Below, one piece after another: positions 4,785 through 16,772 of a DNA stretch of 24,000 nucleotides. The position numbers and the translations under genes were made by a program. The DNA is from Methanomicrobiales archaeon (GTDB lineage: Archaea > Halobacteriota > Methanomicrobia > Methanomicrobiales > JACTUA01): assembly GCA_035506435.1 (NCBI GenBank), contig DATJPK010000026.1:1-24000 (forward strand). The letters run 5' to 3'. A model generated the notes under the pieces. That model did not search any database, was not told where the DNA came from, and saw nothing but the letters and a program-made list of their open reading frames with translations. Position 1 is the stretch's first letter; the number at the start of each line of letters is the position of its first letter.

Positions 4785-6002
4785 ATGATGCAGGAGGAGA
4801 AGCTCCCCGGCCTCAGCCCCGACGACAGGCTGAAAAAGGTCAGGAAAGAGTTCCACGAATACATCGACAAGAACATCGCCGAGATCGTCCAGACCCTCCC
4901 CGTCTTTTTTGCCCACATCATCACGATGCTCAACGACTCCTTCCCCGGCATCAAGGACGAGGCCCACGACGAGTTCATCGACTCGGTCACGGAGCGGATC
5001 CTCTCCGACTCCCGGCAGGGGAACAACCTCGCGTTCGTCGAGAAGGTCTGCGCGAACGCCGTGCGGGCGAAGAAGGGCCAGCGGGCGAAGCAGGGCACCG
5101 ACATCATCGCCGGGATCGAGCTCCTGAAGAGCGAGCAGTTCGCCCCCGCCATCCGGCTCCTGAAGGAGTACACCCACCTGGACGCGACCATCGGCGCGGC
5201 GGTGGCATACTGCTATTACATGCTCTCGATGAAGGAGATCGCCTCGCTCAAGGAGAAGGCCATCAGGGTCGACGAGAAGGAGCAGCGGCCGAACCAGTAC
5301 GAGCTCATGGCGAGGGAGGAGATGCTCCGGCTCGCGAACTCGAGGCCGCCCATCAACGCCCTCAGGGAGCTCCGGATCCGGGAGGAGGAGGAACCGGTCC
5401 TCAGGAGGGCCTTCTGGCTCATGATCTCCTGCGCCCTCGAGTGGTTCCCGAACGAGAAGGGCTTCCTCTTCGTGGGGCTCGAGAAGGCAAAAAGGGACAA
5501 GAACCGGGACATGAAGAGCGAGCTCCTCAAGATCGCGACCGAGCGGTTCTTCGACGACATGTACTTCCTGAAGGAGATGTACCATTTCAAGCTCGAGACC
5601 GGGGACGGTGACGGCGCGACGGTGGTCGTCCGGCAGATGATCCAGCAGTTCCCCGACGGGCTGGAACCCCTGTACTTCGGGCTCATGATCTCCCTCCTCT
5701 CGATGAAGAAGACCACGTACGACGGGTTCCGGAAGCTGCTCCTCATGAAGGGGATCCCCGAGCACATACCCGGGACGATGGACATCGCCTACCATGTCAT
5801 GAACAACGACCACCGGCAGGCGCTCGCCACCCTTCGTGAGCTCAAGGGGAAGTTCCCGAGGTTCGATTTTTACTACGTCTCCCTCGAGTACCTCCTCGCC
5901 GATACCTCCGCCGAGGACCAGAAGCGGAACAAGCGGGCGAGGAAGATGCTCCTCGACTCCATCGACCGGTTCTGCTTAAACGAGCTCGGGATAGAAAGGT
6001 AA
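4785..6002 (+). CDS. Hypothetical protein, predicted all-helical (TPR-like?), cytoplasmic
   Basis: 405-aa ORF with balanced K/E/L/F/Y composition and strong GC3 bias. The antisense ORF 4782-5813 is R/G/P/H/D-rich shadow. No motif I recognise. Confidence 0.8.
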   Translation: MMQEEKLPGLSPDDRLKKVRKEFHEYIDKNIAEIVQTLPVFFAHIITMLNDSFPGIKDEAHDEFIDSVTERILSDSRQGNNLAFVEKVCANAVRAKKGQRAKQGTDIIAGIELLKSEQFAPAIRLLKEYTHLDATIGAAVAYCYYMLSMKEIASLKEKAIRVDEKEQRPNQYELMAREEMLRLANSRPPINALRELRIREEEEPVLRRAFWLMISCALEWFPNEKGFLFVGLEKAKRDKNRDMKSELLKIATERFFDDMYFLKEMYHFKLETGDGDGATVVVRQMIQQFPDGLEPLYFGLMISLLSMKKTTYDGFRKLLLMKGIPEHIPGTMDIAYHVMNNDHRQALATLRELKGKFPRFDFYYVSLEYLLADTSAEDQKRNKRARKMLLDSIDRFCLNELGIER

Positions 6003-6028
6003 TAAAACCGGGCAGGATTCCCGTGGTT
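6003..6028. terminator. Possible bidirectional hairpin between convergent genes
   Basis: AACCGGG (6006-6012) pairs with CCC-gt-GGTT (6020-6028), 7 bp with a 2-nt bulge. The minus strand gives GGTTTTAT after the propeller gene stop. Confidence 0.25.
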
Positions 6029-7239
6029 CACCGGCCGAGGAGCCGGCCGAAAAACCCTGATATCGCTTTTAAGAAAGCCTCGAGGGGGCCCGGGGGTGCC
6101 GCGGGGGCCTCCTGGACCTCCGTGTAGGAAACGGCGGGGGTCAGGGAGTGCGCCGGGGGAGCCGGAGGGGCAGGATAGGTCGTCACGACGGGGAAGGTAT
6201 CGACGGGTATGGTCGGGTTCCCCGCCCCGCTCTCCGGGGGAAGCTGGTAGTACCCGACGTTCTCGGGGGTGACGAACCAGAGCCGGTCCTGGGAGTCGAG
6301 GTAGAGCCTCTTCACCGCGTTGTTCCTGATCCCCCTCGGGGCATCAAGGTGGTCCTTCACGCCGTAATCCCACTTGTAGAGGCCGTAGTTCGTCGCGATC
6401 CAGAGGGCCCCGGAGGGGTCGACCTGGACGTCCGCGATGTCGATCCCCATCATCAGGTCGTCGGGGGTAGCGATCAGCCGGAGCCGGTCCTGCGGGTTGT
6501 AGTGGAGGATTGCTGACGAGTTGAAGATGTAAATTCCCCCGAAGGGGTCCTCCTTGAGCCGGTAGGCCGATCCCGCGGCGAGCTGGGGATCGGTGAAGAG
6601 GGTGAAGGATACAGGGGAATCGGAGTTCTCCGTCGACCAGATACCGGTGTTGCAGGACGCGTACAGGGTCTTTCCCCCGTTATCGGCGGTCATCGAGTCC
6701 ACGTAGTTGCACCCGAGCCCCTCGCGGCCGCCGGGCTGGAACCATTCCCAGGTCCCGTCGCGGTACCGGTGAAGCCCCGCCGTCCCCGCAGCGACCCACA
6801 TCCTCCCGTTCGCGAGGAGGAGCCCGTGGATGTCCAGGCTTTTTAAGAGCTGCTGGTCACGGTTCGTCTCGTACAGGCCGTCCTCGATGACCTGGATGCC
6901 GTCGGGGTAGCCCAGCCAGAGGTGGCCCGCGGGGTCGAACTCGGCGGCGAGGATATGGTCCGAAAGGAGCCCGTAGCTCACGTTACCGTAGGTCATGTGG
7001 CGGATCTGCCACGAACCGTCGTAGATGGAGAGGCCGTTGTCGGTCCCGAAGTAGAGGGTCCCGTGAGGGTCCTCGGCGATGTCGAGGACCCCGAGGGAGG
7101 AGATCTGGTTCGACGAGGCAATGAAAAGGACGGTGCCTGCGAGGGCTGGCCCGGAGACTGCAAAGACGAGGGCGAGGAGGATGACCGGGACCAGCCCGGG
7201 GCTCCGGGACCCCGTGCGGACTCCTGCGCCACCCGCCAT
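6028..7239 (-). CDS. Secreted/membrane-anchored 7-bladed beta-propeller protein (two-component-regulator-propeller, Reg_prop-like repeats), Pro-rich stalk and C-terminal amphipathic helix
   Basis: 403 aa. N-terminal signal/anchor (LVPVILLALVFAVSGPALAG). Seven repeats of the form D-x-x-G-x-[LI]-[WY]-h-[GA]-T-x-x-G-[LI]-x-x-[YW], e.g. EDPHGTLYFGTDNGLSIYD, DPAGHLWLGYPDGIQVIE, NGRMWVAAGTAGLHRYRD, DPSGALWIATNYGLYKWD, SQDRLWFVTPENVGYYQ. Tail is PAPPAPP...GPLEAFLKAISGFFGRLLGR. ATG is 6 nt after the stop of the preceding gene, with GAGGGAGA upstream. Confidence 0.85.
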   Translation of the reverse strand: MAGGAGVRTGSRSPGLVPVILLALVFAVSGPALAGTVLFIASSNQISSLGVLDIAEDPHGTLYFGTDNGLSIYDGSWQIRHMTYGNVSYGLLSDHILAAEFDPAGHLWLGYPDGIQVIEDGLYETNRDQQLLKSLDIHGLLLANGRMWVAAGTAGLHRYRDGTWEWFQPGGREGLGCNYVDSMTADNGGKTLYASCNTGIWSTENSDSPVSFTLFTDPQLAAGSAYRLKEDPFGGIYIFNSSAILHYNPQDRLRLIATPDDLMMGIDIADVQVDPSGALWIATNYGLYKWDYGVKDHLDAPRGIRNNAVKRLYLDSQDRLWFVTPENVGYYQLPPESGAGNPTIPVDTFPVVTTYPAPPAPPAHSLTPAVSYTEVQEAPAAPPGPLEAFLKAISGFFGRLLGR

Positions 7240-7245
7240 GGGACC

Positions 7246-8112
7246 CTATCTCCCTCTCATTTCGTGCAGGACGTCTCCCAGTTCGTCGAGGAGCTGCTTC
7301 CCGCTCACCCTGACGCCCTTCAGGTCCCGCAGGAGGCTCGTGTCGTCCCGCCTCTTTTCCCTCATCGCCTCTGCCCGGAGGGCCGAGAGGAGGTCGTCGG
7401 CACCCAGCCCGCCGTCGGCGAGGGTGAGGACGTTCACCGGGGGTTCCACCACCGGCTCCGGCTCCTCCCCGGGCTGGGGGAAGGCGGCCGCCTGGAGATC
7501 ACCCGGCCCGGGGGTACCGGCGACGGGGGCGAGGGCGCCCGCAGCCCCGGCTGTCTCCTCGCCGCTGACCTCTTCGAGGAGCTGGGCCGGGATGTCCACC
7601 CCGGTGAGATCGTCGAAGGGGTTATCCTGCCCCTCTCCCTGCACCGCCCCGGGCGCCGGCTTCGCCCCGGCAGGAGAGGCCTTCGCGGCCGGCTGGACCG
7701 GCGTGACGGCCTTCGGCCGGCCCTCGGCGAGGGATATGATCTTTCTTGACTGGCCGACGAGCGCCGAGTCGAGCATCAGGTCGATCTTCTCCTTCTCGGC
7801 CTCAGCGACCGCCTCAGCGGGCTCGCCGGCCGCGCCCCGGGACGGCCTGAGGCTCCTCATCCTCCCGAGTGAAGCCCGGAGCCCTCCGGGCGCTTCGGGC
7901 ACGGTGCCGGCCTGCACGACCTCTCTCGCAGAGGCTGCCGACCGGATCCGGAGGTCTTCCATCTTCAGGGAGCCCGCGGCAAAGAGCATCCCGATCCCCA
8001 CCACCGTGTCCGTGAGGACGAGGAGGACGGGGTTCATCCCGGTGTACAGCAGCGCCGTACCCGTTCCGAAGGTTCCGAGGCCAAGGATCATCTGGCGTAT
8101 TCTCTCGTTCAT
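7246..8112 (-). CDS. Hypothetical membrane protein coupled to arlJ: N-terminal TM hairpin, long Ala/Pro/Glu-rich disordered region, helical C-terminus
   Basis: 288 aa. The ATG overlaps the arlJ stop (ATGA at 8109-8112), with GGAGG (8119-8123) 6 nt upstream. TM segments are MILGLGTFGTGTALLYTGM and PVLLVLTDTVVGIGMLFAAGSL. C-terminus is DDLLSALRAEAMREKRRDDTSLLRDLKGVRVSGKQLLDELGDVLHEM. Confidence 0.8.
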   Translation of the reverse strand: MNERIRQMILGLGTFGTGTALLYTGMNPVLLVLTDTVVGIGMLFAAGSLKMEDLRIRSAASAREVVQAGTVPEAPGGLRASLGRMRSLRPSRGAAGEPAEAVAEAEKEKIDLMLDSALVGQSRKIISLAEGRPKAVTPVQPAAKASPAGAKPAPGAVQGEGQDNPFDDLTGVDIPAQLLEEVSGEETAGAAGALAPVAGTPGPGDLQAAAFPQPGEEPEPVVEPPVNVLTLADGGLGADDLLSALRAEAMREKRRDDTSLLRDLKGVRVSGKQLLDELGDVLHEMRGR

Positions 8113-9719
8113 GTGATTCCTCCCGTGGGGAAGGTTGGAATGGTGAAGAAGATGTTCACGATGATAGGCGCGAGGATGACGAGCGCCCCGCTGATGGTAA
8201 AGAGGATCGTCGAGAACAGGTAGAAGATGTACCGGTCGCCCCCGTACACGATTTTCCCCGCGATGATGTTCGAGACGGTGATGAGGAGGATGATGATCAT
8301 GACGTAGGTGGTCATCTTGTCGACGGGGAAGTGCATGAGGAAGGTGACGTCGAGGCCCGACGGCATCGACGAGGTGCTCCCCGAGATGGCCGCCTGGGAC
8401 TCCCCCAGGTTCGACATCACGTTCTCGATGGAGTTCGAGATGTTGCTCATGATGAAGAACAGGAAGAGGAGAATACCCACCATGGCGGCGTGCATGGGCA
8501 CGAGGAGGGTGACGAAGCCCATCGAGACCTGGTGGCGCTTGTCCCGGAGGAGCACCTGGTCCAGGCTCGAGGTGCCGACGATCAGGCCGACCTTGTCCGG
8601 CGAGCCGCCGAGGGTGACCGAGTCCCGGAAGATGTTCGTGTACTTGTAGATGTTATTGCTCCCCGACTCGCCGATGAACCGGCTCCAGCTCTGGGTCTCG
8701 TCGAGGCCGAGGTTCAGCTTCGAGTAGATGGAGTCCACGAGGTCACGGATCTTGGGGAGCGAGGCCCGGTCCACCTCGGTGAAACCCTGCACCATCGGGA
8801 CCCCCTTCCCCCCCATCACCGAGCCGAGGGTCCGGATGAAGGTGGGGAAGTCGTTGTCCCGGCCGACAATCTTGCTGTCGTCGATGAAGCCGAGGATCGC
8901 GAGGGGCGCGAGGAGGATCCCGATGAGGAGGTAGATGAACCCGGCGCTCTGGCCCGTGACCCAGAGGATGATGCAGCCGGCCGCCGTGACGAGGACGAGG
9001 GGCCGCTCGAGCTTCCTGATGAGGCCCTGCTCCCGGGAACACCGGTCGGCGAGACCGTGGGTCCGGCGGTCCTCGGGTACAGAGCGGTACATCGTGACGA
9101 GGCCGAAGATGGAGATCATGATGACGATGAGGTACGAGAGGTTCAGGGTCTGGTCGATTCCGCCGGCAGAGAAAATGGCGATGGAGAGCATGATGATGAG
9201 GGAAACGAGCACGCCCGAGAAGAGCATCGCGATGTACGCGTCGCCCCACTTCTTGAGCATCTCGAGGCCCTGCTCCACGGTGTTCCGGTACACGCTCCTG
9301 ATGGTGTCGAGCTCCCGGTCCAGGAAGTCCTCGTCGGGCACGCCGCTCTCCATCGCGTTTGCGTACCGGTTGAAGACCGACTGGAGCACCTCGTTTTTGA
9401 TCTTCTTTGCGACGATCTTCAGGGCCTCGGCATAGCTGTAGTTCCAGCGCTTGACAAAGTAGTCAACCTTTGCCACGTACTTGGTGGGGACGTACTCGTA
9501 CCGCCTGCCGGTGTAGGAGAAGATGTCCGGCCGGGAGACCCCCGCGGTCGTGATGGAGGCCATGTAGGTCGCCATGAAGAGGAGGTCGGCGGGGGTCCGC
9601 TTCTCCTCGTCGACGCTCTGGACGAAGCCGCTGACCCGCTTCACCTGGTCCGCGAAGGGAAGCTTCCCATCTCCCCTTGCCCGCAGGGCGTCTGCAAACC
9701 CGCCGAAGAGTCCCGCCAT
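8109..9719 (-). CDS. arlJ: Archaellum polytopic membrane platform protein ArlJ (FlaJ)
   Basis: 536 aa. Two T2SS-F-like cytoplasmic domains separated by TM bundles. Position is directly after arlI (2-nt spacer). Confidence 0.95.
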   Translation of the reverse strand: MAGLFGGFADALRARGDGKLPFADQVKRVSGFVQSVDEEKRTPADLLFMATYMASITTAGVSRPDIFSYTGRRYEYVPTKYVAKVDYFVKRWNYSYAEALKIVAKKIKNEVLQSVFNRYANAMESGVPDEDFLDRELDTIRSVYRNTVEQGLEMLKKWGDAYIAMLFSGVLVSLIIMLSIAIFSAGGIDQTLNLSYLIVIMISIFGLVTMYRSVPEDRRTHGLADRCSREQGLIRKLERPLVLVTAAGCIILWVTGQSAGFIYLLIGILLAPLAILGFIDDSKIVGRDNDFPTFIRTLGSVMGGKGVPMVQGFTEVDRASLPKIRDLVDSIYSKLNLGLDETQSWSRFIGESGSNNIYKYTNIFRDSVTLGGSPDKVGLIVGTSSLDQVLLRDKRHQVSMGFVTLLVPMHAAMVGILLFLFFIMSNISNSIENVMSNLGESQAAISGSTSSMPSGLDVTFLMHFPVDKMTTYVMIIILLITVSNIIAGKIVYGGDRYIFYLFSTILFTISGALVILAPIIVNIFFTIPTFPTGGIT

Positions 9720-9721
9720 CC

Positions 9722-11587
9722 CTAGCTCCCGATCTTGAGCAGGCCTTCCTTCTTCACCTTCGTGATCATCTGGAAGAGGTCCTTGAAGTCAACGTAGCCC
9801 GCCTTGTGCAGCCGCTCGAGGATCCGTGCCCGCTTGTCCACTTCGTCGTAGATCTCGGCCTTCTTGTGGTCGGGGAAGCCGAGGAGGGTCGCGATCTTGT
9901 TCTCGAGGATATAGCTCGCCCCTTTTCCCGAGAAGTCGAAGGTGTCGTTCACGGGGTTCCACTTGAAGATCTCGACGAAGGAGATACCGCCGGTATCGGC
10001 GTTGTACCCGACGAGCTCGTTTACCGAGAGCATGCGCCTGACGGTCTCACCGGAGGGGCGCTTGACCGCGCTCTGGATGACGACGAGGTTCAAGTTATCG
10101 AGGTAGGTCTTCGGGATGTTGATCGGGTCACCGCAGAGACGCTGGATGAGCTTCTCGACCGAGGCCGCATGGAAGGTGGAGAGCACCGGGTGACCGGTCT
10201 GCATCGCACCGAAGGCGACCGACCCCTCGACACCACGGATTTCCCCGACCACGATCATGTTCGGCCGCTGACGGAGGGCCGACTTCAGGAGGTCGAACAT
10301 GGTGACATCGGCCCCCTCGCCCTCCCCCTTGCCCTTTGCCTTCGAGACCTCCCGGGTCCAGTTCTTGTGGGGCACCTGGAGCTCGGGGGTATCCTCGATG
10401 GAGACGATCTTGTGCTCGGGCGGGATGAAGGCCGTCACGGCGTTCAGGGAGGTGGTCTTCCCCGAGGCCGTCTCCCCGCTCATGAAGAGGGACATCCCGT
10501 GCTCGATGCAGATCCAGAAGTACCCCGCCATCAGGTAGTTGCAGGTCCCGAACTCCACGAGCTTGAGGATGCTGATGACGTCGTCGGCCATGGCCTTCCG
10601 TATCGTGAAGTTGGAGCCGCGCTTCGAGATCTCGGTCCCGTACACGATGTTGATACGGGACCCGTCGGGCAGCGTCGAGTCCACGATGGGCGTGCGGTAG
10701 GTGAGGGGCTTCTTCAGCCTCTCGCCGAGCTTCACCACGAACTGGTCGAGCTCGTCGGACTTGTGGAACTCGATGATGGACTTCAGGCCCTTGAAGATCT
10801 TGTGCTCGATGAAGATCGGGCCGAGGCCGTCGCAGGTGACATCCTCGATATACCGGTCGTTGATGTACGGCTTCAGCACCCCGAGGTCGATCTTGTCCCG
10901 GATCATGAGGTACTCCACCGCCTGGTACTCCTGCGGGGTAAGCACGATCCGGCCGTCGGGGAGTTTCGGGACCTTCGCGAGCGCCGCGTCGGCCTCGTTG
11001 TCGGTCGCAGCAGTCAGGTCCTTGTTCAGGAACCCCATGATCTTTTCCTTCATGCCCTGCTTCGCCGCGATCTGGGCCATGAGCCCCTCCACCGTCTCGC
11101 CCTGCTTCGTGACGTAGACAACCCGGGAGACGAGTTCCTTTAATACCGAGGCCCGCTCGGCATCGTTGATGGGGTCCCGGTCGAGGGCGTCGAGCAGGTT
11201 CACGAGCTTGACCTCCACCGCGGGGATGAGGTCGTTCACCGAGTGGAGGAAGGAGGGCTCGATGGGGATGTAGTAGTTCCGGGCATCGACGGGGTCGGGG
11301 AAGATGTGGATGTAGGTGTTTTCGCCCGCGGGATAGATCAGGTTCGGGTCCTTCATCGACTTGAGGTCCCGCTTCAGCTCCGAGAAGAACAGGGGGACCC
11401 CGTAGGTGTTCACCGGGTAGGTATGGAGGTACTCGAGGAGGTGCGGGCTCCTCTGCGCGTACTCCTTTGCATGCGCCGGGAGCATCCGGTAGATCGAGCA
11501 GCCTTCGATGTTGTTTGCGCAGTCGTTCCCCTCGTCGGCCTTTGCCGGGTTGAAGGGGAGTGTCAGGGAGACGGTGAGGGTGCCCAT
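9722..11587 (-). CDS. arlI: Archaellum motor/assembly ATPase ArlI (FlaI), secretion-ATPase superfamily
   Basis: 621 aa. Walker A GETASGKTT, Walker B NMIVVGEIRG, SIEDTPEL and HPVLSTFHA motifs. ATG is 3 nt after the arlH stop. An internal Met at residue 35 is an alternative start. Confidence 0.97.
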   Translation of the reverse strand: MGTLTVSLTLPFNPAKADEGNDCANNIEGCSIYRMLPAHAKEYAQRSPHLLEYLHTYPVNTYGVPLFFSELKRDLKSMKDPNLIYPAGENTYIHIFPDPVDARNYYIPIEPSFLHSVNDLIPAVEVKLVNLLDALDRDPINDAERASVLKELVSRVVYVTKQGETVEGLMAQIAAKQGMKEKIMGFLNKDLTAATDNEADAALAKVPKLPDGRIVLTPQEYQAVEYLMIRDKIDLGVLKPYINDRYIEDVTCDGLGPIFIEHKIFKGLKSIIEFHKSDELDQFVVKLGERLKKPLTYRTPIVDSTLPDGSRINIVYGTEISKRGSNFTIRKAMADDVISILKLVEFGTCNYLMAGYFWICIEHGMSLFMSGETASGKTTSLNAVTAFIPPEHKIVSIEDTPELQVPHKNWTREVSKAKGKGEGEGADVTMFDLLKSALRQRPNMIVVGEIRGVEGSVAFGAMQTGHPVLSTFHAASVEKLIQRLCGDPINIPKTYLDNLNLVVIQSAVKRPSGETVRRMLSVNELVGYNADTGGISFVEIFKWNPVNDTFDFSGKGASYILENKIATLLGFPDHKKAEIYDEVDKRARILERLHKAGYVDFKDLFQMITKVKKEGLLKIGS

Positions 11588-12346: not shown

Positions 12347-12847
12347 CTACACGATGTACGCGGAGTCGTAGACCCCGTTCGCAGTCGACACCTTCACCCA
12401 CACCGGGTCGCCCTTCAGGGGGTCCGGGTCGTAGGCCACCGAGATGTTCACAACCTCGTCGGGATCGAGGAGCCCCGGGTGGACGATCTCGCCGTGGACG
12501 AGATCGGGGCTCATGATCCGGTAGACCCAGTCGTACGGGGCCGAGAGGTTGGTGTACGTGTACGGGACCCCGCCCTGCATCAGGTACACCTCGGTGTGGT
12601 TGAAGTCCCCGAGGATCTCGCTCCCCGTGTTCTTCACCTCGAGGTACGTCAGCCGGGCCCCGAGGTCGTTCGATACGTTCATGATCTCGACGTTCGTATG
12701 GATCCGCTCGTTTTCCTTCTCCGAGATGGCACGCTGGGCAAGGACGGCGGTCTTTGCCGTGGCAAGGGTCCCCCCGATCAGGACGTAGGCCGTTATGATG
12801 AGGAGGATGATCGCGACCGCGGACGCGATGATGGTGCCGGCACCCAT
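12347..12847 (-). CDS. arlG: ArlG (FlaG)
   Basis: 166 aa. Single N-terminal hydrophobic helix (IIASAVAIILLIITAYVLIGG) followed by a beta-rich domain. F versus G is assigned by the canonical order arlF-arlG-arlH. Confidence 0.8.
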   Translation of the reverse strand: MGAGTIIASAVAIILLIITAYVLIGGTLATAKTAVLAQRAISEKENERIHTNVEIMNVSNDLGARLTYLEVKNTGSEILGDFNHTEVYLMQGGVPYTYTNLSAPYDWVYRIMSPDLVHGEIVHPGLLDPDEVVNISVAYDPDPLKGDPVWVKVSTANGVYDSAYIV

Positions 12848-12850
12848 ATC

Positions 12851-13354
12851 CTAGCTCACCGTAAACTGCTCCGAGCGCTTCGTCCCGTCGAAGAGGACCA
12901 TCTGGAAGTACACGACGTCCCCCCTCGAAGTCGGGAGATGGTCGCTCTTCATCATGAGATGGAGGGTCTCGCCCTCGTCCCAGTAGGCGTTCGAGTTATC
13001 CAGGATATCGTAGCTCCACTTGCCGGCGGCCGGCGGGGCGCCCACGAGATCATCCTGGGAGAGGGCCTCGAAGTCGCCCGGGGCACCGATAAAGAGGGTG
13101 GACATGTTCAGGTCCTTCAGGTAGATCCGACTCGTACCCGTGTCCTTCAGCCAGACCTGGGCGTTCCCTGCCGAATCCGCGAAGCTGTTCACGATGACCA
13201 TGTCGGTCCGCATCTGCTGGTCTGCCTTCGAAGAGGAGGAGGAGAAGGTGGAGGACATGGTATAGATGGCCGGGAAAATCTGGGAGGTGAGGATGCCTGC
13301 CGCTACGATGGCGGTGATGAGGAAGATGGCCGTAACGATTGTCTCACTCGACAT
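12851..13354 (-). CDS. arlF: ArlF (FlaF)
   Basis: 167 aa. N-terminal helix TIVTAIFLITAIVAAGILTSQIF plus a beta-rich domain. 3-nt spacers on both sides. Confidence 0.8.
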   Translation of the reverse strand: MSSETIVTAIFLITAIVAAGILTSQIFPAIYTMSSTFSSSSSKADQQMRTDMVIVNSFADSAGNAQVWLKDTGTSRIYLKDLNMSTLFIGAPGDFEALSQDDLVGAPPAAGKWSYDILDNSNAYWDEGETLHLMMKSDHLPTSRGDVVYFQMVLFDGTKRSEQFTVS

Positions 13355-13357
13355 CCA

Positions 13358-14161
13358 TCAGGTCCTGTCCATGCTGTCGATCCACTCGAAGACCTGATCG
13401 CTCTCGGGTTTCCCGGCCTTTCTCGGGACCGCGGCCACCGGGCCCGGGATCCGGTGGGTCATGAGGACCTCGATCATGTCCTCGTCCAGGGTGTTGTCCT
13501 TGGGGTCGAGGATCCGGTTGAGGATATAGAGCTCGGAGACGAACTCGTCGGGTCCGATGACATGGAGTTCCCCGAGCGAGGCGGGGAGGAGCCGGCCGAT
13601 CTCCCGGATCTGGCCTTCCATCTCCTCGGTAAGGTATCCCATGCTCGTATAGGCCTGGAGGAGGATCTCGAGCCGGTCATGGCCGTACCGGTTGATGATC
13701 TTCGACGTCCATCCAAAGAGCCGGTGTACCTTCCGGAGCCGGAGCTTCTCCCCGAGCTTCCCGGATCCGAAGGGCATGGCCGGCGGCATCTTTCCCTTTC
13801 CCCGCAGCATGTTTGCAAGCTCCTCCTGGACGCTCTTCTCGGCGCCCGGGAAGGACTCCTCCTGCTCCTCCGCCTTCTCTTCACCGGCGGGGACCTCCTC
13901 CTCTTCCTTCTCCTCCTCGGCCGGGGCCTCTTCAGCCTCGGGGAGCTTTCCCGGGAGCGGCCCATGGGTGAGGAAGGGGTTATCCTTCTCGTTCAGCCGG
14001 TCCCGGATATCGATCAGGAGCTTCTTGATGGAGGTCTTCATGAGGTCCATCTCGTCCTGCAGCTTGAGGAGCTTCACGTCCGCGTCCCCGGCAGGTGAGG
14101 CGGCAGCGGCGGGTGCCTCATCCTGCGGTGACGGCGGCATATTCAGATTGAGCCTGGCCAT
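13358..14161 (-). CDS. arlCDE: Fused ArlC/ArlD-E type archaellum protein (FlaC coiled coil + acidic linker + FlaD/E domain)
   Basis: 267 aa. N-terminal coiled coil VKLLKLQDEMDLMKTSIKKLLIDIRDRLNE, poly-acidic linker EEAPAEEEKEEEEVPAGEEKAEEQEE, C-terminal FlaD/E-like RLFGWTSKIINRYGHDRLEILLQAYTSMGYLTEEMEGQIREIGRLL. An alternative start is Met8 (14140). Confidence 0.85.
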   Translation of the reverse strand: MARLNLNMPPSPQDEAPAAAASPAGDADVKLLKLQDEMDLMKTSIKKLLIDIRDRLNEKDNPFLTHGPLPGKLPEAEEAPAEEEKEEEEVPAGEEKAEEQEESFPGAEKSVQEELANMLRGKGKMPPAMPFGSGKLGEKLRLRKVHRLFGWTSKIINRYGHDRLEILLQAYTSMGYLTEEMEGQIREIGRLLPASLGELHVIGPDEFVSELYILNRILDPKDNTLDEDMIEVLMTHRIPGPVAAVPRKAGKPESDQVFEWIDSMDRT

Positions 14162-14169
14162 AGCACACT

Positions 14170-14215
14170 CACGTAAAAAAAATTAATCACTCATACTAAA
14201 TATACCTTGTGTTTT
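14170..14215 (-). promoter_or_regulatory. Candidate promoter of the arlCDE-J (and downstream) operon
   Basis: Minus-strand AGGTATATTTAG (14196-14207, ~41 nt upstream of ATG 14161) and GATTAATTTTTTTT (14174-14188), inside a ~140-bp very AT-rich island. Confidence 0.35.
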
Positions 14216-14302
14216 GCTATTTTTCATAAAAGACATAGTGTTTACAAAATAACCTGAAAATCTTCATTAAAACGGGAAATAAATCGGGTTTGCGCCTCGT
14301 TC

Positions 14303-14380
14303 ATCCGGGGGTGGTCCCCCCGGATACATCACCTGCTATCCCCGGCATGCACCGGGCGCGGCGCATGCACTGTAAAAAAA
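14303..14380 (-). terminator. Archaellin transcript terminator: T7 run followed by GC-rich hairpins
   Basis: On the minus strand a TTTTTTT run (14374-14380) starts 10 nt after the arlB stop. Next comes GCATGC...GCATGC (14345-14350 / 14363-14368). Then a 9-bp perfect stem ATCCGGGGG / CCCCCGGAT (14303-14311 / 14317-14325) with a 5-nt loop. Confidence 0.55.
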
Positions 14381-14389
14381 GGTGAGGGA

Positions 14390-15713: not shown

Positions 15714-16772
15714 TTATTCAGCTAAAGTTCTGGTATTTTTTATTCTGGATATGGCTTCGACCGCCGCATCATGCAGTTCGGAATCGGCTTCTATGAGTGC
15801 GTCGGTAAGCGGCTGGATGGCCCGGGGGTCGGCAATTTTCCCGAGGGCGGCCGCGGCCCGGACCCGGACGCCATCGTCCTCGTCCCCCAGGGCGGTGATG
15901 AGATCCTCGGTCGCCCGGGGGTCGCCGAGCCGGCCGAGCGACTTCACCGCCTCCCGGCGCACGAAACGGTTCTCGTCCGAGGTCGCCCGTGCAAGGGGCT
16001 CCACGCCCTCCGGGTCCCCGATGATCCGCAGCGCAATCGCCGCCCCCATCCGGATGTGCCAGTCGGCATCCCCGAGCGAAGTGATGAGCCGAGGAACAGC
16101 GAGCCCGCCGAGGGACCCGAGGGCCTGCGCCGCCGACTCCCGGATGGCACGGTTCTCGTCCCCCATGAGCCCGATGAGGGGCCCGACGGCCCGGGGGTCG
16201 CCGCTTTTCCCGAGGGACGAGATGGCCGCCCTGCGCACCCGGTTGTCCTGGATCGCGAGGGTCGAGAGGAGGGAGTCGAGGTCCTCGCCGGCGCCGGCCG
16301 CATGGGGCCCGGGCAGCGGGGCGGTCGCCCCGGCGTCCACCGCGGCATCATCCCGCCCGCCCGCATTCCGAGCCCTGAGGAACCCGGAGATGCGCCTCCA
16401 CTGCCCCATGGTGAAGAGGGAGATGGCGGCCACCACCCAGATATAGATCGCCATGTACACGAGGACCAGGGGATCGAAGGGGATCCCGTTCGCGAACCCG
16501 AAGAGGATCATCCCGATGGAGACGCCGACGAGGACGCAGATGAAGAGGAGCCCCCGCCTGGGGTACCAGATGGCGGCGAGCACGATGGGGATGCAGTAAA
16601 GGAGGGGAAAGAGGGGGAGTATCTCCCGTGAGAATGCCTCGACAGGGCTCGTGATGGCGTACGCATGGAGGAGGAGGGTGAGGATGGTGAATACCCCGAT
16701 GAGGAAGGGTCTCAGGATCCCGCTCTCCGGGGCCTCCCGCATCGAACCCTGGATGGACAGATCCCCCGGCAT
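15714..16772 (-). CDS. Membrane protein with 4 N-terminal TM helices and a C-terminal array of PBS-lyase-type HEAT repeats
   Basis: 352 aa. TM segments are FLIGVFTILTLLLHAYAI, LPLFPLLYCIPIVLAAIWY, LLFICVLVGVSIGMILFGF and LVLVYMAIYIWVVAAISLF. About 5.5 repeats of 31 aa, e.g. DENRAIRESAAQALGSLG, DENRFVRREAVKSLGRLGDPRA, DEDDGVRVRAAAALGKIADPRA. Confidence 0.85.
   Translation of the reverse strand: MPGDLSIQGSMREAPESGILRPFLIGVFTILTLLLHAYAITSPVEAFSREILPLFPLLYCIPIVLAAIWYPRRGLLFICVLVGVSIGMILFGFANGIPFDPLVLVYMAIYIWVVAAISLFTMGQWRRISGFLRARNAGGRDDAAVDAGATAPLPGPHAAGAGEDLDSLLSTLAIQDNRVRRAAISSLGKSGDPRAVGPLIGLMGDENRAIRESAAQALGSLGGLAVPRLITSLGDADWHIRMGAAIALRIIGDPEGVEPLARATSDENRFVRREAVKSLGRLGDPRATEDLITALGDEDDGVRVRAAAALGKIADPRAIQPLTDALIEADSELHDAAVEAISRIKNTRTLAE

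What the first reader, a model, noticed from the sequence alone, without database searches (positions are those of the whole stretch)
6028..8112. Archaellum operon extended past arlJ by two uncharacterised, translationally coupled genes (TM-hairpin/disordered protein + secreted 7-bladed propeller)
Seen:
- The 288-aa ORF starts in an ATGA overlap with the arlJ stop (8109-8112), with GGAGG 6 nt upstream.
- The 403-aa ORF follows after a 6-nt spacer with its own SD.
- There is no AT-rich or oligo-T break until 6003-6027, so arlCDE-F-G-H-I-J-orf288-orf403 looks like one transcription unit.

Established: described euryarchaeal arl/fla operons end at arlJ. The known accessory components are ArlC/D/E (Euryarchaeota) or ArlX (Crenarchaeota).

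Inference:
- orf288 has two N-terminal TM helices with positive charges on both flanks, so about 230 aa would face the cytoplasm. That part is a long A/P/E-rich disordered segment ending in an amphipathic helical region.
- This topology recalls the membrane-anchored scaffold ArlX.
- orf403 has a signal/anchor sequence, seven Reg_prop-like blades, a Pro-rich stalk and a C-terminal amphipathic helix (GPLEAFLKAISGFFGRLLGR). That would place a ligand- or envelope-binding propeller outside the cell.
- Together they could be an undescribed stator, envelope-anchoring or sensory module of the archaellum in this lineage.
Basis: partly seen in the sequence, partly recalled or inferred. Interest (0 to 1): 0.75.

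Follow-up and report, generated by a model that had tools for sequence, protein, structure and literature searches.

The report
Two undescribed genes ending an archaellum operon
The swimming-motor (archaellum) operon of this methanogen carries two extra, real and conserved genes: a small membrane-anchored protein that follows the motor platform gene arlJ in every relative examined across the order Methanomicrobiales, and a secreted propeller protein that normally ends the adjoining chemotaxis operon. Neither has been described, so both are candidate new parts of the archaeal motility and taxis machinery.

Summary
orf288 (8112-7246) overlaps the arlJ stop by ATGA. orf403 (7239-6028) follows after 6 nt. 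All genes from arlCDE to orf403 are at most 9 nt apart. Both ORFs are under purifying selection (dN/dS 0.27 and 0.21; arlJ 0.22).

- orf288 belongs to an unannotated family: 112 clusters, no Pfam or NCBIfam model, and every named member is in Methanomicrobiales.
- In 80 metagenome loci, arlJ lies immediately upstream in 52/52 and cheF immediately downstream in 75/75.
- The usual layout in the order is arlCDE-G-F-H-I-J-orf288-cheF-Y-B-A-C-D-propeller.
- The propeller start overlaps the end of cheD by 23 or 16 nt in 23/25 loci.
- This window's lineage lacks the six che genes at this locus, which puts orf288 next to the propeller.

So the two genes are not a conserved pair. One is coupled to arlJ, the other to cheD.

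Best reading (inferred): orf288 is a membrane tether on the ArlJ platform that presents a conserved cytoplasmic C-terminal module to the switch ring. This is analogous to crenarchaeal ArlX but not homologous. orf403 is a surface-tethered, seven-bladed ligand-binding propeller serving taxis or motility.

The parts
15714..16772 (-). HEAT_PBS repeat protein directly upstream of the archaellin genes (context)
   Evidence: Pfam HEAT_2 4.5e-37 and HEAT_PBS 3e-28. The same gene sits upstream of arlB in sister loci L001-L011. A HEAT_PBS protein, OE2401F, is needed for motor switching in Halobacterium salinarum (PMC2666748).
14390..15612 (-). Two archaellin genes, arlB (15612-15010 and 14998-14390)
   Evidence: Pfam Arch_flagellin 5e-33 and 1.6e-35; class III signal-peptide N-terminal domain TIGR02537.
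14162..14389 (-). Intergenic region with a T7 run just after arlB2 (14380-14374), an AT-rich promoter-like stretch and a T8 run (14182-14175) before arlCDE
   Evidence: GC is 0.43 against 0.64 for the window. One search lists a TATATT element at 14199.
13358..14161 (-). Divergent ArlC/D/E-like protein (267 aa)
   Evidence: Assigned by position. Only a weak Pfam Arch_fla_DE hit (E=0.048). Conserved in all related loci.
12347..13354 (-). arlG-like (13354-12851) and arlF-like (12847-12347) stator genes
   Evidence: Pfam Arch_flagellin 1.2e-7 and 1.1e-9. NCBIfam best hits are ArlG 1.2e-6 and ArlF 2.2e-5, both below cut-off. The G-F order matches the 'fla2' cluster type of Methanomicrobia (PMC1914349).
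11591..12337 (-). arlH (KaiC-like ATP-binding protein)
   Evidence: NCBIfam FlaH 321 bits (cut-off 194) and ArlH 227 bits (cut-off 215).
9722..11587 (-). arlI (motor ATPase)
   Evidence: NCBIfam archaellum ATPase FlaI 711.7 bits (cut-off 550).
8109..9719 (-). arlJ (membrane platform protein)
   Evidence: NCBIfam ArlJ/FlaJ equivalog 667 bits (cut-off 570).
7246..8112 (-). orf288, a member of an undescribed arlJ-coupled membrane protein family. Its start overlaps the arlJ stop (ATGA).
   Evidence: There are 74 close and 112 cluster-level relatives. arlJ is upstream in 52/52 loci. dN/dS is 0.27.
7966..8091 (-). orf288 residues 8-49: Gly-rich two-helix membrane hairpin with a short NP turn
   Evidence: AF2 helices 3-23 and 28-45. 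Nearly invariant in the close family. dN = 0 against the 92%-identical relative. Basic residues lie on both flanks.
7720..7818 (-). orf288 residues 99-131: conserved cytoplasmic helix carrying the family motif IDxxLDxx
   Evidence: AF2 helix 99-129 with pLDDT about 80. The motif is conserved in close and distant members.
7249..7404 (-). orf288 residues 237-288: conserved C-terminal helix, beta-hairpin, helix module (DDLLSALR..DDTSLLRDLKGV.V.G..LLDEL)
   Evidence: AF2 pLDDT about 80. This is the most conserved part across the whole family. dN = 0.
6028..7239 (-). orf403: secreted seven-bladed Reg_prop beta-propeller with a Pro-rich stalk and a C-terminal amphipathic helix
   Evidence: Pfam Reg_prop 61 bits. 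AF2 pLDDT 77.7 and pTM 0.72. Foldseek matches the BT4663/BT3049/BT4673 sensor propellers at E about 1e-13. dN/dS is 0.21. Orthologues overlap cheD in 23/25 loci.
6031..6090 (-). orf403 residues 384-403: C-terminal amphipathic helix (GPLEAFLKAISGFFGRLLGR)
   Evidence: AF2 helix 385-402. Hydrophobic moment is 1.36 against 0.59 for shuffles. A comparable hydrophobic tail is kept in distant orthologues.
5990..6027 (-). T-rich stretch after the orf403 stop (GGTTTTATTACCTTTCTAT), the likely end of the transcription unit. A convergent gene (4785-6002, + strand) ends here.

Best explanation
SHOWN. orf288 and orf403 are real protein-coding genes at the 3' end of a tightly packed arlCDE-G-F-H-I-J block.

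- orf288 belongs to an uncharacterised family spread across Methanomicrobiales. Its gene always lies directly after arlJ, usually overlapping it. Where che genes are present, it lies directly before cheF.
- orf403 belongs to an orthologous group of secreted single Reg_prop propellers. In most relatives it is the last gene of the adjoining che operon, and its start overlaps cheD.
- In this lineage the cheF-cheD block is missing from the locus, so the two genes abut.

INFERRED mechanism.
- orf288 is made together with ArlJ and inserts next to it through its Gly-rich hairpin.
- Both termini are cytoplasmic. A flexible linker of 100-300 residues carries a conserved helix and a conserved 50-residue C-terminal module.
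- That module docks a cytoplasmic partner at the motor. The most likely partner is the ArlCDE/ArlH ring or the CheF-CheY switch adaptor.
- orf288 would thus act as a membrane tether for the euryarchaeal switch ring, which has no membrane anchor of its own.
- orf403 is exported by Sec and held near the membrane by its stalk and amphipathic tail. It binds an extracellular ligand, probably a glycan, in the service of taxis or motility. A sensory accessory role seems more likely than a stator part, because some lineages lack it.
For: - Real genes: dN/dS is 0.27 (orf288; 0.0 in the hairpin and C-terminal module) and 0.21 (orf403), against 0.22 for arlJ.
- Operon: gaps are 9 nt or less from arlCDE to orf403.
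- Family size: 74 close relatives. An exhaustive profile search of 1.84 billion representatives finds 112 clusters with the same architecture.
- Taxonomy: all named members are Methanomicrobiales.
- Context for orf288: arlJ is upstream in 52/52 loci and cheF downstream in 75/75. Annotated examples are L014-L016.
- Context for the propeller: it follows cheD in 22/27 loci. Its start overlaps cheD by 23 nt (20 loci) or 16 nt (3 loci) out of 25.
- Propeller fold and nearest structures.
- Literature: ArlCDE lack the transmembrane domain that ArlX has, and the membrane anchoring of the euryarchaeal ring and the composition of the polar cap are unknown (PMC8978795).
- orf288 stays with arlJ in the lineage that has no che genes at the locus. 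This ties it to the motor rather than to Che proteins.
Against: - No interaction, expression or phenotype data exist for either protein.
- The whole region is syntenic across the order, including unrelated genes on the far side (ABCE1/RLI, EMC6, NFACT, Pelota). Neighbourhood evidence alone is therefore weaker than the counts suggest.
- The sampled loci were found through orf288 itself. Whether some arlJ genes in the order lack it was not tested.
- orf288 has no detectable similarity to any archaellum or Che protein or to any solved structure, so its partner is a guess.
- The propeller is missing after cheD in 5/27 loci and in L016, so it is not essential to the machinery.
- Most of the orf288 model is low confidence (pLDDT 56).
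Confidence: 0.5

Rival explanations
1. orf288 is a regulator or assembly factor rather than a structural tether. It might be a brake or clutch, a factor that helps insert or stabilise ArlJ, or a landmark that positions motors at the pole. Its disordered acidic linker would then act as a spacer or as an interaction hub.
For: The coupling to arlJ and the architecture would suit this reading equally well. Linker length and composition vary widely, from 268 to 493 aa in total, which is typical of regulatory hubs.
Against: The hairpin and the C-terminal module are extremely conserved (dN = 0). The 1:1 gene coupling suits a stoichiometric part at least as well. Nothing in hand separates the two readings.
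Confidence: 0.25
2. orf403 is an envelope-binding part of the archaellum. It would act outside the cell as a bushing or stator accessory that grips the S-layer or sheath glycans alongside ArlF/ArlG.
For: It is secreted, has a stalk and a tail, and has a glycan-sensor-like propeller. It is kept and co-transcribed with the motor genes in the lineage without che genes at the locus. Lineage-specific surface proteins in archaellum loci have been proposed to modify the S-layer locally in Methanococcales and Thermococcales (bioRxiv 10.64898/2026.04.22.720090).
Against: In most relatives it is coupled to cheD, six genes away from the motor genes. It is absent from 5/27 che-bearing loci and from L016, which is unexpected for a stator part.
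Confidence: 0.2
3. One or both genes are passengers. They would be conserved neighbours, read through from the arl/che operon, with a function unrelated to motility, such as envelope maintenance or nutrient sensing.
For: Gene order in this region is conserved across the order even for clearly unrelated genes such as ABCE1, EMC6, NFACT and Pelota. Reg_prop propellers serve many purposes.
Against: The unrelated neighbours are on the opposite strand or beyond a convergent gene. In contrast, orf288 overlaps arlJ and the propeller overlaps cheD in nearly every locus. No orf288 relative was found away from arlJ in 52 informative loci. All named members of the family come from one order, in which it sits inside the arl-che cluster.
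Confidence: 0.12

Closest known systems
ArlX (FlaX), the membrane-anchored cytoplasmic ring scaffold of the crenarchaeal archaellum
   Same: It is a small membrane-anchored protein encoded in the arl operon with most of its mass in the cytoplasm. ArlJ and ArlX depend on each other for stability (PMC8978795), which parallels the tight arlJ-orf288 gene coupling here.
   Different: ArlX has one TM helix and a coiled-coil domain and belongs to the FlaD/E family (arCOG07206; Makarova 2016 supplement). It replaces ArlCDE and is encoded upstream of arlG. orf288 has a two-helix hairpin and a long disordered linker. It shows no Arch_fla_DE or ArlCDE similarity. It co-occurs with ArlCDE and lies after arlJ.
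ArlCDE / CheF / HEAT_PBS (OE2401F) switch adaptors of Euryarchaeota
   Same: They are encoded in the same arl-che supercluster, and orf288 sits exactly between arlJ and cheF. These are the proteins that link CheY to the motor (PMC7534055; PMC2666748).
   Different: All three are soluble proteins with known domains (Arch_fla_DE, CheF-arch, HEAT). orf288 is membrane-anchored and shares no detectable similarity with them (hhalign probabilities below 1%).
Periplasmic sensor propellers of Bacteroides hybrid two-component systems (BT4663, BT3049, BT4673; Pfam Reg_prop)
   Same: They share the seven-bladed Reg_prop fold (Foldseek E 2e-13 to 1e-11, TM-score about 0.6 on the query) and an extracytoplasmic location. 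In BT4663 the propellers bind glycans.
   Different: Those proteins have two propellers plus a YYY domain, fused to a membrane kinase and a response regulator. orf403 is a single free-standing propeller with a signal peptide, a Pro-rich stalk and an amphipathic tail. Sequence identity is only 15-20%.
S-layer-like accessory proteins in archaellum loci of Methanococcales and Thermococcales (arCOG05057)
   Same: They are a precedent for lineage-specific secreted proteins encoded with archaellum genes and proposed to act on the envelope (bioRxiv 10.64898/2026.04.22.720090).
   Different: They have Ig-like folds rather than a beta-propeller, occur in different orders and are not linked to che genes.

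Membership tests
Archaellum (arl/fla) operon core | ArlJ, ArlI and ArlH reach the curated family thresholds and are encoded together with archaellins and ArlF/G | tested here: met
   ArlJ 667 bits (cut-off 570), FlaI 711.7 bits (cut-off 550), FlaH 321 bits (cut-off 194). Two archaellins match Arch_flagellin at E about 1e-33 to 1e-35. ArlF and ArlG match only below cut-off.
ArlX (FlaX) | A single N-terminal transmembrane helix followed by a cytoplasmic coiled-coil domain | tested here: not met
   orf288 has two N-terminal helices forming a hairpin (AF2 residues 3-23 and 28-45). This is conserved across the family. Most of the cytoplasmic part is low-confidence or disordered.
ArlX (FlaX) | Sequence relationship to the FlaD/E family (arCOG07206, COG3351) | tested here: not met
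   No Pfam Arch_fla_DE hit even at E<=5. None of 62 family members hit it. hhalign against the ArlCDE proteins of related loci gives probabilities below 1%.
ArlX (FlaX) | Replaces ArlCDE and is encoded between the archaellin and arlG | tested here: not met
   orf288 co-occurs with an ArlCDE-like gene in every locus and lies 3' of arlJ.
ArlX (FlaX) | Forms a ring around ArlH/ArlI and binds them | not testable with these tools
   This needs multimer prediction or experiment. Only single-chain prediction was available.
Reg_prop beta-propeller (PF07494) | Repeated Reg_prop motifs above the Pfam threshold, folding into a seven-bladed propeller | tested here: met
   61 bits against a cut-off of 20.4. 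AF2 shows seven four-stranded blades, pTM 0.72. Foldseek to BT4663 gives E=2e-13.
Hybrid two-component system sensor (BT4663 type) | Two propellers plus a YYY domain fused to a TM segment, a histidine kinase and a receiver | tested here: not met
   orf403 is 403 aa with one propeller and no kinase or receiver domain.
Archaeosortase-type C-terminal sorting signal (PGF-CTERM and relatives) | A signature motif, then a hydrophobic TM helix, then a basic cluster at the extreme C-terminus | tested here: not met
   No NCBIfam sorting-signal model hit at E<=0.01. The tail is amphipathic and carries internal charges (GPLEAFLKAISGFFGRLLGR). Orthologue tails are 14-18 residues long and mostly lack a terminal basic cluster.
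MotB/ExbD/TolR-type ion-driven stator | A universally conserved acidic residue in the TM helix plus a periplasmic anchoring domain | tested here: not met
   Asp35 is invariant only in the close family and is absent from TM2 of distant members. There is no periplasmic domain. Single-member ExbD/PomA hits at E about 0.005 are noise.
arlJ-coupled hairpin protein family (defined here) | An N-terminal two-helix hairpin, an IDxxLD helix, a variable linker and the C-terminal DDLL..K..SLLRDLK..V....L..EL module, with the gene immediately 3' of arlJ | tested here: met

The most novel reading that the evidence does not exclude
orf288 is the missing membrane anchor of the euryarchaeal archaellar motor in Methanomicrobiales. 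On this reading it is a stoichiometric partner of ArlJ whose C-terminal module holds the ArlCDE/CheF switch ring, or the polar cap, to the membrane. It would do the job that ArlX's transmembrane helix does in Crenarchaeota. The cheD-coupled propeller would be an extracellular component of the same taxis and motility apparatus.
Probability: 0.2. Interest if true: 0.8.

Novelty: new variant of a known kind. Interest (0 to 1): 0.6.

Why it matters
Reviews of the archaellum state that the euryarchaeal cytosolic ring (ArlCDE) has no membrane anchor. They also note that the composition of the polar cap and the way the ring is held in place are unknown (PMC8978795).

A protein that is membrane-anchored, cytoplasm-facing, translationally coupled to arlJ and conserved across a whole order gives that question a concrete, testable candidate.

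The propeller is the first secreted protein I am aware of that is systematically coupled to an archaeal che operon. This points to an extracellular element in archaeal taxis or motility.

Both families are currently annotated only as 'hypothetical'. One member is mislabelled as a cation exchanger. Defining the families would improve annotation of all Methanomicrobiales genomes.

The finding also shows that the arl operon boundary drawn from model organisms, ending at arlJ, does not hold in this order.

Tried and rejected
- **Curated libraries.** Pfam and NCBIfam scans of orf288 and of 62 diverse family members found no family. Four members hit LapA_dom, which is just a two-helix hairpin resemblance. 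Single-member hits to ExbD, PomA, PspM and SCO2097 at E about 0.002-0.006 were treated as noise.
- **Solved structures.** A PDB sequence search with the family profile returned only a de novo designed helical protein at E=0.53. Foldseek of the orf288 model against PDB found nothing below E=4.7, as expected for a mostly disordered model.
- **Paralogy within the cluster.** I tested whether orf288 is a diverged paralogue of another cluster protein. hhalign against alignments of ArlB, CDE, F, G, H, I, J, CheF, Y, B, A, C, D, HEAT, the propeller, the convergent 405-aa gene and RLI gave probabilities below 1% in every case.
- **Ion-conducting stator idea.** Asp35 sits in TM2, but it is not conserved outside the close family, so I rejected this.
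- **Archaeosortase sorting signal on orf403.** Rejected on inspection and for lack of any model hit.
- **Scans that failed or were limited.** A metagenome scan with the full-length diverse alignment failed because no stretch was conserved enough. It was redone with the C-terminal module. The genome-contig scan used patterns from the close family and so found only 8 uncultured species. It does not bound the family.
- **Prior computational notice.** Makarova et al. [quoted passage not shown] The stored neighbourhood table is cut before Methanomicrobiales, so I could not map them to this family.
- **AFDB fold search.** The library was unavailable.
Full report
**Observation**

The minus strand of the window carries a complete archaellum cluster.
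- Two archaellin genes lie at 15612-15010 and 14998-14390.
- A 267-aa ORF (14161-13358) has only a weak FlaD/E hit (E=0.048).
- Two ArlG/ArlF-like genes lie at 13354-12851 and 12847-12347.
- arlH is 12337-11591, arlI is 11587-9722 and arlJ is 9719-8109.

ArlJ, ArlI and ArlH exceed the curated NCBIfam thresholds.

orf288 (8112-7246) starts in an ATGA overlap with the arlJ stop, and GGAGG lies 6 nt upstream. orf403 (7239-6028) starts 6 nt after the orf288 stop. Gaps from the ArlCDE-like gene to orf403 are 3, 3, 9, 3, 2, -4 and 6 nt.

A T7 run follows arlB2, and an AT-rich region with a T8 run precedes the ArlCDE-like gene. The archaellins may therefore terminate separately, while arlCDE to orf403 forms one compact block.

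At this base composition about one T>=5 run is expected in 8.1 kb, and one is seen.

**Are they genes?**

Yes. I compared the window with a 92%-identical relative (L097).
- orf288 has dN/dS 0.27. There are no non-synonymous changes in the hairpin or the C-terminal module, and 0.54 in the linker.
- orf403 has dN/dS 0.21.
- arlJ has dN/dS 0.22.

**What is orf288?**

It has no Pfam or NCBIfam match.

A word-indexed search found 74 relatives, all from uncultured Methanomicrobiales. Their alignment shows four features:
- a nearly invariant Gly-rich N-terminal pair of helices joined by a short NP turn;
- a conserved helix at about residues 99-131 carrying an IDxxLD motif;
- a variable Ala/Pro/Glu-rich linker;
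- a strongly conserved C-terminal 50 residues.

AlphaFold2 predicts the hairpin, the helix and a C-terminal helix, beta-hairpin, helix with pLDDT about 80. The rest is low-confidence. Basic residues flank the hairpin on both sides, so both termini should be cytoplasmic.

An exhaustive profile search of 1.84 billion cluster representatives found 112 clusters. The distant members are 320-490 aa long and have the same three conserved elements with longer, more acidic linkers.

Every member that carries an organism name is from Methanomicrobiales: Methanoculleus, Methanoregula, Methanoplanus, Methanomicrobium, Methanofollis and Methanocalculus. None of 62 diverse members matches a curated family.

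The profile matches no solved structure and the model matches no fold. Profile-profile comparison with every other protein family of the cluster is negative.

**Genomic context of orf288**

Annotated contigs from Methanoculleus sp. 7T and two other lineages read arlCDE-like, arlG/F, arlH, arlI, arlJ, the orf288 homologue, cheF, cheY, cheB, cheA, cheC, cheD.

I then scanned metagenome contigs with the C-terminal module. This gave 219 relatives, of which 80 loci were fetched. I labelled their ORFs by BLASTP with the window's proteins and the Methanoculleus Che proteins.
- arlJ lies immediately upstream in 52 of 52 loci that have upstream sequence. The usual arrangement is a 4- or 8-nt overlap.
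- Four apparent gaps of 306-797 nt are family genes broken by frameshifts in long-read contigs. Their N-terminal fragments still start at the arlJ stop.
- cheF lies immediately downstream in 75 of 75 loci, at gaps of 4-96 nt.

The sister loci of this window (L001-L004, L006-L013, L097) have the same order without the che genes.

**What is orf403?**

It has the following parts:
- a Sec-type signal peptide;
- Reg_prop repeats at 61 bits;
- a confident seven-bladed propeller, closed by the N-terminal strand;
- a disordered Pro-rich segment at 337-381;
- an amphipathic C-terminal helix.

The nearest solved structures are the periplasmic glycan-sensing propellers of Bacteroides hybrid two-component systems, at E about 1e-13 and 15-20% identity.

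Its orthologues form a distinct group with 52 hits, falling to 36% identity. The 36% relative sits directly after cheA-cheC-cheD.

In the che-bearing loci a propeller follows cheD in 22 of 27 cases. When its start is placed at the signal peptide, it overlaps the end of cheD by 23 nt in 20 loci, by 16 nt in 3, and by 11 and 1 nt in the other two. In the window's sister loci it follows orf288 after 31-53 nt.

Distant orthologues keep the signal peptide, a Pro/Thr-rich stalk and a short hydrophobic or amphipathic tail.

**Synthesis**

The layout in most loci examined across the order is (HEAT)-arlB...arlCDE-G-F-H-I-J-orf288-cheF-Y-B-A-C-D-propeller. A convergent gene and ABCE1 follow.

The window's lineage lacks cheF-cheD at this locus, and no che gene occurs anywhere in the 24 kb. 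The orf288/orf403 adjacency is therefore secondary. orf288 is an arlJ-coupled gene and orf403 is a cheD-coupled gene.

Other Euryarchaeota also link arl and che genes. One example is arlJ-HEAT-cheF in Archaeoglobus veneficus (Makarova 2016 supplement). Loss or relocation of the che block in this lineage is therefore the simpler history, but I did not root it.

**Mechanism (inferred)**

orf288 has the shape of a tether: a conserved membrane hairpin, a flexible spacer and a conserved terminal module.
- Its unbroken coupling to arlJ argues for co-production and co-assembly with the platform protein.
- Its retention where che genes are absent from the locus ties it to the motor rather than to Che proteins.
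- Reviews stress that ArlCDE lack the transmembrane domain of ArlX, and that the anchoring of the euryarchaeal ring and the nature of the polar cap are unknown (PMC8978795).

I therefore favour a role as a membrane tether that docks the ArlCDE/ArlH ring or the CheF adaptor. A regulatory or assembly role is the main rival.

For orf403 I favour a surface-tethered ligand-binding protein serving taxis or motility. A sensory accessory role is more likely than a stator part, because some che-bearing lineages lack it.

The main caution is that the whole region is syntenic across the order, including unrelated genes beyond the convergent gene. In addition, loci were sampled through orf288 itself, so the reverse question of whether every arlJ has an orf288 is untested.

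**Comparison with what is known**

orf288 is not ArlX. It has a hairpin rather than a single TM helix, shows no FlaD/E similarity, co-occurs with ArlCDE and lies 3' of arlJ. It may nonetheless work like the membrane-anchoring part of ArlX.

orf403 is a true Reg_prop propeller but not a two-component sensor.

Neither family is mentioned in the reviews and censuses I could read (PMC4858521, PMC8978795, PMC10117864, PMC1914349, and two 2026 preprints). The supplementary arCOG lists of Makarova et al. contain a few unresolved small 'predicted archaellum component' groups that I could not map. Prior computational notice therefore cannot be ruled out.

**Verdict**

This is a known system, the archaellum/chemotaxis supercluster, with two undescribed accessory genes conserved in relatives across the order. 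Interest is moderate to high because orf288 gives the open question of membrane anchoring of the euryarchaeal motor a concrete candidate.

Noticed in passing
window 15714-16772 (- strand): A HEAT_PBS repeat protein lies directly upstream of the archaellin genes, and also in sister loci. In Halobacterium salinarum the HEAT_PBS protein OE2401F is needed to couple CheY to the motor, and that paper found no homologues in the che regions of non-halophilic archaea. Its presence here suggests the lineage keeps a switch apparatus even though no che genes are at the locus.
   Followed up: partly
window 6028-8112 compared with L014-L096: The whole cheF-cheY-cheB-cheA-cheC-cheD block that separates the two genes in other Methanomicrobiales is missing from this lineage's locus. 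Only 6 nt remain here (31-53 nt in sister loci). I could not determine whether the che genes moved elsewhere or were lost.
   Followed up: partly
window 12347-13354 (- strand): Weak NCBIfam hits suggest the order is arlG then arlF.
   Followed up: partly
window 14162-14389: A T7 run immediately after arlB2 and an AT-rich promoter-like stretch before the ArlCDE-like gene suggest a separate archaellin transcript, with the accessory genes on their own promoter or on read-through.
   Followed up: no
window 4785-6002 (+ strand): A 405-aa gene convergent with orf403 has no Pfam family (only TPR_6 at E=0.16). It is conserved in the same position between the propeller and ABCE1/RLI in sister loci and in some che-bearing loci (L031, L032, L052, L057, L086).
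   Followed up: no
L001/L006, L035, L051, L067, L094: Several long contigs show arl, che and family genes split into two or more ORFs. These are probably indel errors of long-read assemblies rather than pseudogenes. They inflate apparent intergenic gaps.
   Followed up: partly
P0164 (Methanoplanus limicola WP_004079170.1): A family member is annotated in GenBank as 'putative sodium/potassium/calcium exchanger'. This is almost certainly a mis-annotation caused by its acidic low-complexity linker.
   Followed up: no
orf288 residues ~108-116 and family alignment A3: The conserved mid-helix motif (K/E)IDxxLD resembles, from memory, the EIDALL core of the CheY-binding N-terminal peptide of bacterial FliM. 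The motif is short, so this may be coincidence. It was not tested.
   Followed up: no
L016, L017, L020, L048, L086, L093: These che-bearing loci lack the propeller after cheD. L016 has arginine decarboxylase and carbamoyl-phosphate synthase genes there instead. The propeller is therefore dispensable or relocated in some lineages.
   Followed up: no
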